Assembly (NCBI RefSeq): GCF_055900595.2
Contig: NZ_CM148325.1
Length of the DNA stretch: 64,000 nucleotides
Reading direction: 5' to 3' (one strand)
Both the position numbers and the translations under genes were made by a program. Of the stretch, positions 12,981 to 48,808 are shown piece after piece. Positions within the stretch are counted from its first letter, which is position 1; the number at the start of each line of letters is the position of its first letter. The notes under the pieces are model-generated. The model saw nothing but the letters and a program-made list of their open reading frames with translations, was not told the DNA's origin and made no database searches.

Positions 12981-13094
12981 TGCCGGATGCGGCGTAAACG
13001 CCTTATCCGGTCTACCGATCCTGCGCCCATGTGGGCCTGATAAGACGCGCAAGCGTCGCATCAGGCATCGTGTGCCGAATGCCGGATGCGACAT
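12981..13094. repeat. REP/BIME palindromic unit cluster
   Basis: GCCGGATGCGGCGTAAACGCCTTATCCGG…GCCTGATAAGACGCGCAAGCGTCGCATCAGGC…GCCGGATGCG; typical enterobacterial REP sequences between convergent fadA and fre. Confidence 0.8.
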
Positions 13095-23061: not shown

Positions 23062-23179
23062 AACGCCTCCAGCCTCATTACTTACCCGCACAAAATAGAA
23101 TTGTGCTGTACAAACGTCCAGTTTGAAAGAAGTTTCCTGCGAGGCGCTACGCAAAACGATCCTTAATTTTTATTATTTT

Positions 23180-23215
23180 ATCCCACAATATGAGACGTAG
23201 TTTATATTGTGGGAT
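23180..23215. promoter_or_regulatory. perfect 12-bp inverted repeat (ATCCCACAATAT-N12-ATATTGTGGGAT), candidate operator
   Basis: Arms at 23180-23191 and 23204-23215 are exact reverse complements; located about 60 bp upstream of the IclR-family regulator ATG. Confidence 0.5.
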
Positions 23216-23276
23216 ATATCACCTTTTCCCCACGTCATTATGTGGAACACTTCAGCAATATCATCAGGAGAAACGT

Positions 23277-24044
23277 ATGGCAGATACCTCTTCAACCACC
23301 GCTGGCGCACAAACGTTATTACGCGGGCTGGCGGTTCTTAATGCTGTTTATAACGGCTGCCATGACCTGAAAAGTATCGGCGAGTTCACCGGCACGACCC
23401 GGAGCACAACCCATCGTTTAGTCACCGTTCTGGTGGAACAACGCTACCTGCGCCACGTCCCAACGCAGGGCTACCAACTGGGCGCCAAACTGATCGAATT
23501 CGGTGCCAGAGCACTGGAAAGCACCTCGCTGTACGAAGTTGCGCTGCCCGTTTTGCAGCGTCTGGCCCGTTACACCCTGGACACCGTGCATCTGGGGATC
23601 GTTGAAGGCGGCGAAGTGCTGTATCTGGAGAAGATCAACAGTCAGCGTGGGCTGGAAATGCGCTCACGCCCAGGCCATCGCATGCCACTGGCAATCACCG
23701 GCATCGGCAAGGCATTGATCCTCAACCGAACAGAAGAAGAGTGGCGCACGCTGTTTAAGACCTGTGGTGATGAAACAAAACTGGGCACATTTATTCAGAA
23801 CATGCGTCGTTATGCCGCCAGTGGTTTTGCTTTTGATCTGGAAGAGAACGAGCCGACTATCCGTTGCGTTGCAGCGCCGGTTTACAACGCCCGGGATGAA
23901 ATTGTGGCGGCTATTTCTGTCGCCAGTACCACTACGTATATGTCACTGGCGCGTCTGGAAGAACTGGCACCTTACGTCAAATCCTGTGCAGAAGAGATAT
24001 CCGCTGAACTGGGCTGGGGTAAGCACGTCCACAAAAATAAATAA
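23277..24044 (+). CDS. IclR-family transcriptional regulator
   Basis: 255 aa from MADTSSTTAGAQTLLRGLAVLNAV…; N-terminal wHTH and C-terminal effector domain pattern of IclR/KdgR-like regulators; RBS AGGAGA upstream of ATG 23277. Confidence 0.75.
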   Translation: MADTSSTTAGAQTLLRGLAVLNAVYNGCHDLKSIGEFTGTTRSTTHRLVTVLVEQRYLRHVPTQGYQLGAKLIEFGARALESTSLYEVALPVLQRLARYTLDTVHLGIVEGGEVLYLEKINSQRGLEMRSRPGHRMPLAITGIGKALILNRTEEEWRTLFKTCGDETKLGTFIQNMRRYAASGFAFDLEENEPTIRCVAAPVYNARDEIVAAISVASTTTYMSLARLEELAPYVKSCAEEISAELGWGKHVHKNK

Positions 24045-45736: not shown

Positions 45737-45841
45737 ATGCCGGATGCGGCGTAAACGCCTTACCCGGCCTACATGACATTGCAATTTATTGAATCTACAT
45801 GATTTTGTAGGCCGGATAAGGTGCGCAGCACCGCATCCGGC
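45737..45841. repeat. REP palindromic unit pair (BIME-like)
   Basis: GCCGGATGCGGCGTAAACGCCTTACCCGGCCTAC … GTAGGCCGGATAAGGTGCGCAGCACCGCATCCGGC in inverted orientation. Confidence 0.8.
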
Positions 45842-45845
45842 AACG

Positions 45846-48008
45846 TTATACCGTCTCCAGCCGGGCGTAAGCCGCCACCAGCCATTTAATACCCTGGCCC
45901 TGAAATGCCACCTGCAAACGACTATGTTCGCCGCTGCCTTCCATATTGACGATAGTCCCTTCACCAAACTTGGCGTGTCGTACGCGCTGGCCGAGTTTGT
46001 AACCGCTGTCGTTCTCAACCATCGGCGTACCCATACGCTGATGGCTGACCGGGCGGCTTACCGTAGCGCGTAAACGCACCTCTTCCACACACTCTTCCGG
46101 CAACTCGCCAATAAAACGCGACGGGCGATGGTAAACCTCTTTGCCATACAGACGCCGGGTTTCCGCGTAGGTCAGCGTCAGTTTCTGCATCGCGCGGGTT
46201 ACGCCAACGTAGGCCAGACGGCGTTCTTCTTCCAGACGCCCGCCTTCATCCAGCGACATCTGGCTTGGGAACATGCCCTCTTCCATACCGACAATAAACA
46301 CCTGCGGGAATTCCAGACCTTTCGCCGAGTGTAGCGTCATCAGCTGTACCGCATCCTGCCAGGTATCCGCCTGCCCTTCACCTGCTTCCAGTGCCGCATG
46401 GGAGAGGAACGCCTGCAGCGGCATTAAATCTTCGTCTTCTTCGTTGTAGCTGAACTGGCGCGTTGCCGTCACCAGTTCCTCTAAGTTTTCGATACGCGTC
46501 TGGCCTTTTTCGCCCTTCTCTTGCTCGTACATGGTGCGCAGGCCGGAGTCTTTAATTACCCGATCAGTCTGTACATGCAGCGGCATATCGGCAGTTTCTT
46601 GCGCTAAGGCGTCGATCAGTTCCATAAACCGTTGCAAAGCGCTGGCAGCACGTCCGGCGAGGGCTTTTTCCTGCAACAGTTCACGACATGCCTGCCAGAG
46701 TGTTAACTGGCGATCGCGCGATGTCTGACGTACCACGTCCAGCGTCCGGTCACCAATACCCCGCGTTGGCGTATTCACCACGCGCTCAAAGGCCGCGTCG
46801 TCGTTACGGTTGGCAATCAGGCGCAGATACGAGAGCGCATCTTTGATTTCCTGGCGTTCGAAGAAGCGCATCCCGCCATAAATACGGTACGGCATACTGG
46901 CTTGTAATAACGCCTCTTCCAGTACACGCGACTGGGCATTGCTACGATAGAGAATGGCGCACTCGGCGAGCGCCCCGCCGTTGTCCTGCCAGGTCTTGAT
47001 GCGGTTAACAACAAAACGCGCTTCGTCGAGTTCGTTAAAAGCGCAATAGAGGGAAATCGGCTCACCGTCCGCGCCATCGGTCCACAACTTTTTACCCAAA
47101 CGCCCGTTGTTGTTTTCAATCAAGGCGTTCGCCGCGCTCAGGATATTGCTAGTGGAGCGGTAGTTTTGCTCCAGACGGATAGTTTCGGCACCGGGGAAAT
47201 CATTGAGGAAACGCTGAATATTCTCCACCTGCGCCCCGCGCCAGCCGTAGATTGACTGGTCGTCATCGCCAACAATCATCACTTTGCCAGTATCGCCCGC
47301 CAGCAGGCGGATCCACGCGTACTGAATGTTGTTGGTATCCTGGAATTCGTCTACCAGGATATTGGTAAAACGTTCGCGGTAGTGTTGCAGGATATGCGGC
47401 TTGTTAAGCCACAGTTCGTGGGCGCGTAGCAGTAGTTCAGCGAAGTCTACCAGGCCCGCGCGGTCGCACGCTTCCTGATACGCCTGGTACACCTTCTGCC
47501 AGGTCTGCTCCACCGGATTACCGTAGCTTTGAATATGATGCGGACGCAGCCCTTCATCTTTCTGGCTGTTGATGTACCACATTGCCTGGCGCGGCGGCCA
47601 CTGCTTCTCGTCGAGGTTCATGGCTTTGATCAGACGCTTAAGCAGGCGCAGCTGGTCTTCGCTGTCGAGGATCTGGAAATCCTGCGGCAGGTTGGCGTCC
47701 ATATGGTGCGCACGCAGCAGACGGTGTGCCAGCCCGTGGAAAGTGCCGACCCATATACCGCCCTGGCTGGTACCCATCAGTTGCCCGATACGATGGCGCA
47801 TTTCCGCCGCCGCTTTGTTGGTAAATGTCACCGCCATAATCGAGTACGGCGAGCAGTTTTCCACGCTCATCAGCCAGGCGATACGATGCACCAGTACGCG
47901 CGTCTTACCACTGCCCGCGCCCGCCAGCACCAGAAGGTTGCTGCGTGGCGCGGCCACCGCTTCGCGCTGTTTGTCATTAAGGCTGTCGAGCAGGTAAGAA
48001 ACGTCCAT
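45846..48008 (-). CDS. uvrD: DNA helicase II (UvrD)
   Basis: 720 aa from MDVSYLLDSLNDKQREAVAAPRSNLLVLAGAGSGKTRVL…; the ORF-track start at 48194 is a 62-codon upstream extension running across the SOS box. Confidence 0.95.
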   Translation of the reverse strand: MDVSYLLDSLNDKQREAVAAPRSNLLVLAGAGSGKTRVLVHRIAWLMSVENCSPYSIMAVTFTNKAAAEMRHRIGQLMGTSQGGIWVGTFHGLAHRLLRAHHMDANLPQDFQILDSEDQLRLLKRLIKAMNLDEKQWPPRQAMWYINSQKDEGLRPHHIQSYGNPVEQTWQKVYQAYQEACDRAGLVDFAELLLRAHELWLNKPHILQHYRERFTNILVDEFQDTNNIQYAWIRLLAGDTGKVMIVGDDDQSIYGWRGAQVENIQRFLNDFPGAETIRLEQNYRSTSNILSAANALIENNNGRLGKKLWTDGADGEPISLYCAFNELDEARFVVNRIKTWQDNGGALAECAILYRSNAQSRVLEEALLQASMPYRIYGGMRFFERQEIKDALSYLRLIANRNDDAAFERVVNTPTRGIGDRTLDVVRQTSRDRQLTLWQACRELLQEKALAGRAASALQRFMELIDALAQETADMPLHVQTDRVIKDSGLRTMYEQEKGEKGQTRIENLEELVTATRQFSYNEEDEDLMPLQAFLSHAALEAGEGQADTWQDAVQLMTLHSAKGLEFPQVFIVGMEEGMFPSQMSLDEGGRLEEERRLAYVGVTRAMQKLTLTYAETRRLYGKEVYHRPSRFIGELPEECVEEVRLRATVSRPVSHQRMGTPMVENDSGYKLGQRVRHAKFGEGTIVNMEGSGEHSRLQVAFQGQGIKWLVAAYARLETV

Positions 48009-48066
48009 TGGCACCGCCGCGTAAAAATAGGTTGGGCGGAGAAGCGCAACGCCCTCCGCCAAAAAG

Positions 48067-48082
48067 CTGGGTATATATACAG
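48067..48082 (-). promoter_or_regulatory. LexA (SOS) box of the uvrD promoter
   Basis: CTGGGTATATATACAG fits CTG-N10-CAG with an alternating TA core; 59 bp upstream of the uvrD ATG. Confidence 0.75.
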
Positions 48083-48091
48083 ATTTGCTGA

Positions 48092-48808
48092 TTATATCAG
48101 CGAGGTCAGAGATGCCAACCGGGAAATTTCCAGATGCGGGAGTAAACGGCTGTCCCAGGTTTGCATCAGATCGCCATTTTCCGGTCTGATCCAACAGGCC
48201 TGCATTCCGCTGCGAATTGCCCCACCCACGTCAGTGGTGAGATCGTCCCCGACATGTAAGATCTCACCGATCGGCACGTTGAGTTTTTCCGCCGCCAGGA
48301 AGTACATATCGCTGAACGGTTTCGAGCGCCCGTGCGGACCAGCGCGCAGCACAAACTCAAAATAATGCCCCAAACCAAACAGCTCCGGCTGGGCGTTACC
48401 GTTGGTGATCGCCACCAGCGGCCATTTCTTCGCCAGCTGTTTTAAGGTGTCGTGCGTTTGCTGCGGAACGTCGATCCGGCTACGCCATTTGGCAAAGTTG
48501 ATCATTGCCGCGTGTGCGCCTGCACTGGCCTCTTCCGCGCTCAGCCCGGCATCAAGCATCGCTTGTTCTATTGAGCGAAAACGCCAGCGCGTCACATCAT
48601 GATAAATCTCGGGTTCCGCTTCCCGTACCGCCTGACGCAGACGTTGCAGATCTTCATTCTGGAAGCTGCGCAGCGCCGGATGGTAATTTTGCACAAAGGT
48701 AAGCGCCTCCTGCTCAGTGCGCAAAATCACCGGACGGTTATCGTAAAGGGTATCATCCAGGTCAAAGGTGAGCGCCGAGATGCGCCCCAAAGGCCGGTAA
48801 AAACGCAT
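48092..48808 (-). CDS. yigB: HAD-family phosphatase (FMN / 5-amino-6-ribitylamino-uracil phosphate phosphatase)
   Basis: 238 aa; HAD motif [12 protein letters not shown]. Confidence 0.88.

What the first reader, a model, noticed from the sequence alone, without database searches (positions are those of the whole stretch)
48067..48082. LexA box in the yigB / uvrD intergenic region
CTGGGTATATATACAG fits CTG-N10-CAG with an alternating TA core and sits 59 bp upstream of the uvrD ATG. The ORF-track call for uvrD (782 aa) reads through this site, which supports choosing the shorter 720-aa start.
Basis: partly seen in the sequence, partly recalled or inferred. Interest (0 to 1): 0.2.

Follow-up and report, generated by a model that had tools for sequence, protein, structure and literature searches.

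The report
Known LexA operator of uvrD

Summary
The 16-mer is at 48067..48082. On the gene (minus) strand it reads CTGTATATATACCCAG, identical to the published E. coli uvrD SOS box.

- **Position.** It starts 8 nt downstream of a near-consensus sigma-70 promoter (TTGGCA, 16 nt, TGnTATAAT) that lies in the last codons of yigB. It therefore covers the predicted transcription start. It sits 58-59 nt upstream of the uvrD ATG at 48008.
- **Score.** A LexA matrix built from 17 other published boxes ranks it first in the 64-kb window. About 0.08 hits of that score are expected by chance. The runner-up is the known rmuC/yigN box.
- **Conservation.** All 80 Enterobacterales species sampled keep a LexA-type box just after the same -10. 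The leader downstream of it varies from 14 to 178 nt.
- **Literature.** Published work reports a heterology index of 8.5 and modest, lexA-dependent induction by DNA damage.
- **Start codon.** The 720-aa start is supported independently. Solved UvrD structures begin at residue 63 of the 782-aa ORF. RefSeq annotates the same start. In 74 of 80 species an in-frame stop lies within 40 codons upstream of the ATG.

Verdict: already known, low interest. Side notes are a REP-like leader hairpin (the reported attenuator) and one genome with a TA deletion inside the box.

The parts
48067..48082 (-). LexA operator (SOS box) of uvrD: CTGTATATATACCCAG on the gene strand. The 20-mer ATCTGTATATATACCCAGCT spans 48065..48084.
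   Evidence: Sequence. Top PWM hit of the window. Identical to the published uvrD box. A box is kept in 80 of 80 species.
48113..48118 (-). -35 hexamer TTGGCA of the uvrD promoter, inside the yigB coding sequence
   Evidence: Promoter scan, 11 of 12 matches. TTGGCA in 77 of 80 species with an invariant 16-nt spacer. This conservation is confounded by the coding constraint of yigB.
48091..48099 (-). Extended -10 TGaTATAAT (TG at 48099..48098, TATAAT at 48096..48091). The yigB stop codon TAA (48094..48092) lies inside it.
   Evidence: TATAAT in 79 of 80 species.
48082..48086 (-). Predicted transcription start (about A48084, 7 nt after the -10). This is an inference, not a mapped start.
   Evidence: Geometry. 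No TSS data could be read here.
48035..48060 (-). Leader stem-loop GGCGGAGGGCG-UUG-CGC-U-UCUCCGCC, a candidate attenuator and REP-like element
   Evidence: Fold. Conserved in 9 species with one compensatory pair. Aligns with REP elements. The title of Easton & Kushner 1983 reports attenuation.
48023..48027 (-). T5 run, 7 nt after the stem (CAACCTA-TTTTT)
   Evidence: Not called as a terminator by the scan. Present only in Escherichia and, as CTTTT, in two Citrobacter.
48012..48018 (-). Shine-Dalgarno-like GGCGGTG, 3 nt before the ATG
   Evidence: The consensus GGCGGTGCCAATG is the best-conserved non-coding stretch next to the box across 80 species.
45846..48008 (-). uvrD coding sequence, 720 aa, DNA helicase II
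48092..48808 (-). yigB coding sequence (238 aa). Its 3' end carries the uvrD promoter.

Best explanation
The 16-mer is the LexA operator of the uvrD promoter.

Shown here:
- A near-consensus sigma-70 promoter (TTGGCA, 16 nt, TGnTATAAT) lies in the last codons of yigB.
- The box begins 8 nt after the -10, so it covers roughly +1 to +20 of the transcript.

Inferred from the established behaviour of E. coli LexA:
- In undamaged cells a LexA dimer binds the two CTG/CAG half-sites and hinders RNA polymerase at the start site.
- After DNA damage, RecA bound to single-stranded DNA triggers LexA self-cleavage, the operator is vacated, and uvrD transcription rises.
- The right half-site is imperfect (ACCCAG rather than ATACAG; published heterology index 8.5). 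Repression is therefore partial and induction modest (about 2-fold) and early. This leaves the high basal UvrD level needed for mismatch and excision repair.

Downstream, a GC-rich leader hairpin followed by a T run is reported to attenuate transcription before the ATG at 48008.
For: Exact identity to the published uvrD box and to K-12.

Best LexA-PWM hit in 64 kb with uvrD left out of the matrix. The second-best hit is another known SOS box, rmuC.

Promoter geometry.

Phylogenetic footprint across 80 species:
- The best box in the 300 nt upstream of uvrD scores at least 11 bits in 70 of 80 loci, against 0 of 867 control blocks of the same size.
- CTG/CAG columns are 98% identical and the 16-mer 85%, against 52% just 5' of the box and 39% just 3' of it.
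- The box lies 1 to 13 nt after TATAAT in every locus, while the distance from box to ATG ranges from 14 to 178 nt.

Within E. coli, the 117-bp promoter and leader is at least 99% identical in 5401 of 5425 genomes. The same holds for only 1326 of 5425 genomes over the surrounding 401 bp.

Literature:
- uvrD is induced 2.1-fold by AZT, with 1.7-fold lexA dependence and HI 8.5 (PMC11228462).
- A UV-induced transcript has this motif upstream (PMC3009722).
- A uvrD promoter-GFP reporter is UV-inducible and classed as 'early' (PMC5999292).
- Ciprofloxacin induction reaches about log2 2 (PMC11002266).
- Salmonella uvrD is induced 13.9-fold and has one box (PMC8072944).
- Two primary papers are known here by title only: Easton & Kushner 1983 and Pang & Walker 1983.
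Against: No binding or expression experiment can be run here, and the primary footprinting paper was not readable. The PWM score sits at the low end of bona fide sites (15.9 bits against a training range of 13.2 to 29.3). About 4% of random 64-kb sequences contain an equal hit. Reported lexA dependence is small (1.7-fold). In Salmonella, basal heterogeneity of uvrD expression is LexA-independent. The transcription start is predicted, not mapped. The conservation of the -35 and spacer cannot be separated from yigB coding constraint.
Confidence: 0.96

Rival explanations
1. A chance AT-rich palindrome with no regulatory role. CTG-N10-CAG is common and the TATATATA core is simply promoter-proximal AT-rich DNA.
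For: The bare pattern occurs 34 times in the window. 13 of 300 random 64-kb sequences reach the PWM score.
Against: A box is retained in 80 of 80 species while the flanking leader is unalignable, and control blocks never reach 11 bits. Published lexA-dependent induction also argues against it.
Confidence: 0.01
2. The conserved element acts mainly as a core-promoter feature (initial transcribed region, or a second -10-like TATATA) rather than as a repressor site. This could also hold in addition to LexA binding.
For: The box overlaps the predicted start site, and its core TATATA resembles a -10 hexamer. Basal uvrD expression is largely LexA-independent.
Against: The promoter scan finds only the upstream promoter. 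The conserved columns are the CTG and CAG triplets exactly 10 nt apart (98%), not a hexamer. The box also shifts 1 to 13 nt relative to the -10 between clades, which a core-promoter element would not tolerate.
Confidence: 0.03
3. Control of uvrD at this locus is mainly post-initiation. The leader hairpin and T run terminate both yigB-operon read-through and most uvrD-promoter transcripts, and LexA is a minor modulator.
For: A stable stem-loop (11 pairs) followed by T5 lies between the box and the ATG. The title of Easton & Kushner 1983 names attenuation. No other terminator follows yigB. LexA dependence is only about 1.7-fold.
Against: The T run starts 7 nt after the stem and the terminator scan does not call it. 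The fold is no better than shuffles (z = -0.11). The hairpin and T run are confined to Escherichia and two Citrobacter, whereas the box is universal. This reading complements the LexA operator and does not replace it.
Confidence: 0.3

Closest known systems
E. coli uvrD SOS box (Easton & Kushner 1983; listed by Courcelle et al. 2001 with HI 8.5)
   Same: Identical sequence, identical genomic context (yigB-uvrD spacer) and identical distance to the ATG. The K-12 sequence is 100% identical over 151 bp.
   Different: Nothing differs. The window comes from a non-K-12 E. coli strain (100% identical over the 401-bp promoter region to strain 2016C-3878), but the regulatory region is the same.
Other gammaproteobacterial LexA operators (recA, lexA, uvrA, uvrB, sulA, umuDC; consensus TACTG(TA)5CAGTA)
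   Same: CTG-N10-CAG palindrome with an alternating TA core, located at the promoter.
   Different: It is weaker than most, with an imperfect right half-site (ACCCAG) and non-consensus flanks (AT...CT instead of TA...TA). It lies downstream of the -10 over the start site, not between the -35 and -10 as described for recA in PMC5999292.
rmuC (yigN) LexA box in the same window (23104..23123)
   Same: Second-best PWM hit, about 44 nt upstream of the gene start, with a similar published heterology index of 8.8.
   Different: Different gene. Its core is less AT-rich (GGACGTTTGTA).
REP (repetitive extragenic palindromic) elements
   Same: The leader hairpin aligns with the window's own REP copies. 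The Citrobacter and Salmonella versions share TGxCGGATG...CTTATCCGxCCTAC.
   Different: The E. coli copy has 3 of 14 mismatches in the REP tail, which is chance level. No REP is annotated there in K-12. The inner stem bases are swapped (GGCGG/CCGCC against GCCGG/CCGGC).

Membership tests
LexA operator (SOS box), Escherichia/gammaproteobacterial type | Two CTG/CAG triplets exactly 10 bp apart in inverted orientation | tested here: met
   CTGTATATATACCCAG at 48082..48067
LexA operator (SOS box), Escherichia/gammaproteobacterial type | Overall similarity to bona fide operators (AT-rich core, consensus TACTG(TA)5CAGTA) | tested here: met
   15.9 to 16.45 bits with a matrix built from 17 other published boxes. 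Training sites score 13.2 to 29.3. Top hit of the window, p = 1.2e-6 per position. Published HI is 8.5, below the usual cut-off of 15.
LexA operator (SOS box), Escherichia/gammaproteobacterial type | Placed where a bound repressor interferes with a promoter | tested here: met
   The box starts 8 nt after an 11-of-12 sigma-70 promoter with an extended -10. The TSS itself is predicted only.
LexA operator (SOS box), Escherichia/gammaproteobacterial type | Conserved upstream of the orthologous gene in related species | tested here: met
   At least 9 bits in 77 of 80 loci and at least 11 bits in 70 of 80, against 4 of 867 and 0 of 867 control blocks
LexA operator (SOS box), Escherichia/gammaproteobacterial type | Physical binding of LexA | not testable with these tools
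   Only indirect support. The title of Easton & Kushner 1983 is the main pointer, and the paper is not held. LexA off-rates were measured for native operators, including the promoters studied in PMC5999292, but the values sit in a figure that could not be read.
LexA operator (SOS box), Escherichia/gammaproteobacterial type | Downstream gene induced by DNA damage in a lexA-dependent way | not testable with these tools
   Literature only: 2.1-fold AZT induction with 1.7-fold lexA dependence, UV induction, ciprofloxacin induction, Salmonella 13.9-fold
Intrinsic (Rho-independent) terminator / attenuator | GC-rich stem-loop immediately followed by a U tract | tested here: inconclusive
   The stem-loop is present (48060..48035). 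However, T5 starts 7 nt after the stem and the scan does not call it. The whole-leader fold has z = -0.11.
Intrinsic (Rho-independent) terminator / attenuator | Conservation with covariation | tested here: inconclusive
   The hairpin is present in 9 of the 80 loci, with 1 compensatory pair of 11. The T run is found only in Escherichia and two Citrobacter.
REP element | Match to the REP consensus (GCCGGATG...CTTATCCGGCCTAC) | tested here: inconclusive
   E. coli leader has 3 of 14 mismatches, which is chance level. Related species have 1 of 14 and align with window REPs. Not annotated as REP in K-12.

The most novel reading that the evidence does not exclude
The stretch between the LexA operator and the uvrD ribosome-binding site may be a tolerated landing pad for small intergenic repeats. 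REP-like hairpins occupy it in Escherichia, Citrobacter and Salmonella, and an ERIC-like element in Kluyvera. On this reading the E. coli 'attenuator' hairpin is a decayed REP-like element that was co-opted to damp uvrD transcription.
Probability: 0.25. Interest if true: 0.25.

Novelty: already known. Interest (0 to 1): 0.07.

Why it matters
It matters little as a discovery. The uvrD SOS box has been in the literature since 1983 and appears in every list of the LexA regulon. Its value here is as a positive control. A reader working from raw sequence located a real operator and used it correctly to reject a spurious 62-codon N-terminal extension. A leave-one-out LexA matrix then recovered both known SOS boxes of the window (uvrD and rmuC) as its two top hits.

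The cross-species comparison adds a small point. The promoter and operator are fixed at the end of yigB across Enterobacterales, while the leader behind them is free to vary and to accept repeat insertions.

Tried and rejected
- **Primary papers.** Easton & Kushner 1983 and Pang & Walker 1983 are not held by DOI or PMC id. Only their titles, from reference lists, could be used.
- **Operator position and LexA half-life.** The supplementary table in PMC5999292 that gives these is an image and could not be read.
- **Rfam.** Nothing was found in the promoter and leader at E <= 1, nor in 12 loci with long leaders at gathering score.
- **Terminator scan.** It does not call the leader hairpin. The leader fold energy is no better than shuffled sequence. 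I therefore do not claim a terminator from sequence alone.
- **Wrong colinearity assumption.** I assumed the window was colinear with strain 2016C-3878 in order to annotate position 23104. That was wrong, and unrelated genes came back. A direct search solved it.
- **Bare pattern.** CTG-N10-CAG alone was rejected as evidence because it occurs 34 times in the window.
- **ChIP-chip literature search.** It gave nothing directly useful.

Full report
**Observation.** The + strand at 48067..48082 reads CTGGGTATATATACAG. On the minus strand, which is the coding strand of the neighbouring genes, it reads CTGTATATATACCCAG.

The window is an E. coli chromosome. A 401-bp query around the site is 100% identical to several complete genomes and is present in 5425 of 5426. 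RefSeq annotates dapF-yigA-xerC-yigB-uvrD there. In window coordinates:
- yigB is 48092..48808 (minus strand).
- uvrD is 45846..48008 (minus strand, 720 aa).
- The spacer between them is 83 bp.
- The mechanical 782-aa ORF starting at TTG 48194 runs through it.

**Is it more than chance?** The bare pattern CTG-N10-CAG is uninformative, with 34 copies in the window against 14.8 expected. I built a symmetric 20-bp LexA matrix from the 17 other boxes printed in Table 4 of PMC3009722, leaving uvrD out.
- The site is the top hit of the window. It scores 15.9 bits against a uniform background and 16.45 bits with window base frequencies.
- The per-position p is 1.2e-6. That gives 0.076 expected per 64 kb and 1e-4 per 83-bp spacer.
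- 13 of 300 Markov-1 simulations of 64 kb contain an equal hit.
- The runner-up (23104..23123, AACTGGACGTTTGTACAGCA, 14.5 bits) lies about 44 nt upstream of rmuC/yigN. That is another classical SOS gene, which validates the matrix.

**Anatomy.** On the minus strand the elements are:
- -35 TTGGCA at 48118..48113.
- A 16-nt spacer.
- An extended -10, TGaTATAAT, at 48099..48091. Together with the -35 it matches 11 of 12 consensus positions.
- The yigB stop codon TAA (48094..48092), which lies inside the -10, so the uvrD promoter is built into the end of yigB.
- The box, which begins 8 nt after the -10.

A start site about 7 nt after the -10 (A48084, predicted and not mapped) puts the operator at roughly +1 to +20.

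Downstream come a stem-loop (48060..48035: GGCGGAGGGCG-UUG-CGC-U-UCUCCGCC), then CAACCTA, a T5 run (48027..48023), a Shine-Dalgarno-like GGCGGTG (48018..48012) and the ATG.

**Related sequences.** A scan of one genome per species with UvrD residues 1-200 returned 80 Enterobacterales loci. They span Escherichia, Salmonella, Citrobacter, Klebsiella, Enterobacter, Pantoea, Erwinia, Pectobacterium, Serratia, Hafnia, Budvicia and others.
- The best LexA-matrix hit in the 300 nt upstream of uvrD has a median of 15.3 bits. It reaches at least 11 bits in 70 of 80 loci and at least 9 bits in 77 of 80.
- Other 300-nt blocks of the same loci reach those scores in 0 of 867 and 4 of 867 cases.
- Every locus has a -35-like hexamer (TTGGCA in 77), a 16-nt spacer, a -10 hexamer (TATAAT in 79) and then the box 1 to 13 nt later. 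The gap is 8 nt in Escherichia, 10 to 13 nt in most Enterobacteriaceae and 1 to 3 nt in the Erwinia/Pantoea group.
- Anchored on the box, CTG/CAG columns are 98% identical and the 16-mer 85%. The 8 nt before the 20-mer are 52% identical and the 20 nt after it 39%.
- The distance from box to ATG ranges from 14 to 178 nt. The operator is held in place while the leader is free to vary.

Within E. coli, the 117-bp promoter and leader is at least 99% identical in 5401 of 5425 genomes. The surrounding 401 bp reaches that level in only 1326.

**Literature.**
- The 25-mer AAATCTGTATATATACCCAGCTTTT is printed as the uvrD SOS motif upstream of a UV-induced transcript (PMC3009722).
- K-12 is identical over 151 bp.
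- uvrD is induced 2.1-fold by AZT, with 1.7-fold lexA dependence and HI 8.5 (PMC11228462).
- Ciprofloxacin induction reaches about log2 2 (PMC11002266).
- A uvrD promoter-GFP fusion is UV-inducible and classed as 'early' (PMC5999292).
- In Salmonella, uvrD is induced 13.9-fold and has one box 105 nt upstream, with HI 11.48 (PMC8072944). That agrees with the 107-nt spacing I find in two Salmonella loci.
[quoted passage not shown] It could be cited only by title because it is not held.

**Mechanism.** What is shown is the sequence, the promoter geometry, the conservation and the published inducibility.

What is inferred comes from the established LexA paradigm. A LexA dimer on the two half-sites occludes the start site. 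RecA-stimulated self-cleavage then relieves repression. The imperfect right half-site (ACCCAG) and non-consensus flanks fit the published HI and the modest, early induction. They also fit the substantial LexA-independent basal expression expected for a helicase needed in mismatch and excision repair.

**The leader hairpin.**
- It is stable, but the whole-leader fold is no better than shuffles (z = -0.11).
- The T run starts 7 nt after the stem, and the terminator scan does not call it.
- It is shared by 9 of the 80 species, with one compensatory pair of 11.
- It aligns with the window's own REP elements. The match is close in the Citrobacter and Salmonella versions but at chance level in E. 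coli.
- No REP is annotated there in K-12, and Rfam has nothing.

I treat attenuation as reported in the literature but not demonstrable from sequence here.

**Start codon.** The 720-aa start is supported independently of the box.
- The promoter lies downstream of the TTG at 48194.
- Solved UvrD chains begin at residue 63 of the long ORF, and homologous helicases align only from there.
- RefSeq uses that start.
- In 74 of 80 species an in-frame stop lies within 40 codons upstream. Only three Escherichia loci and one other keep at least 62 open codons.

**Verdict.** Both the observation and the interpretation are correct. The feature is already known and of low interest.

Noticed in passing
window 23104..23123 (minus strand AACTGGACGTTTGTACAGCA): The second-best LexA-matrix hit of the window (14.5 bits) lies about 44 nt upstream of the rmuC (yigN) start at about 23061. 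rmuC is a known SOS gene (HI 8.8 in PMC11228462), so this is the window's second real LexA box.
   Followed up: partly
window 23190..24044 (+): An IclR-family regulator gene lies divergent from rmuC. The 501-bp rmuC-upstream query is covered at 80% or more in only 1456 of 5425 E. coli genomes, so the DNA next to rmuC is strain-variable.
   Followed up: no
L084 (E. coli AMSCJX02, NZ_CP031105.1), equivalent to window 48071..48080: One of 5426 complete E. coli genomes has a 2-nt TA deletion in the (TA)n core of the uvrD box, giving CTG-N8-CAG. That should abolish LexA spacing. It is either a real slippage mutant with constitutive uvrD or an assembly error.
   Followed up: partly
window 48035..48060 (minus strand) and loci L004, L006, L007, L014, L016, L017, L047, L053: The uvrD leader hairpin looks like a diverged REP element. 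Citrobacter and Salmonella copies read TGGCGGATGGCGCTACGCTTATCCGCCCTAC and align with REPs of the window. The E. coli copy has drifted further.
   Followed up: partly
L033 1340..1480 (Kluyvera genomosp. 3). Similar long leaders in L010, L028 and L043.: A roughly 125-bp insertion lies between the LexA box and the uvrD ribosome-binding site. It contains CACCCCAGTCACGTACTGAAGTACGCTCCTGGGGATGAAC. From memory, this resembles the ERIC/IRU repeat core. Rfam gives no match.
   Followed up: partly
window 45759..45772 (+) and 45807..45820 (-): An inverted pair of REP elements lies immediately downstream of the uvrD stop codon at 45846. Further REP copies are at 13002/13031 and 28786/28835.
   Followed up: no
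L003-L082, position of the box relative to the -10: The gap between TATAAT and the CTG of the box differs by clade: 8 nt in Escherichia, 10 to 13 nt in most Enterobacteriaceae and 1 to 3 nt in the Erwinia/Pantoea group. Six species have TTG and one has ATG in place of the first CTG.
   Followed up: partly
window 48012..48018 and the same position in L003-L082: GGCGGTGCC(A)ATG is almost invariant across 80 species even where the rest of the leader is unalignable. It is probably the ribosome-binding site, with one mismatch to GGAGGTG.
   Followed up: no
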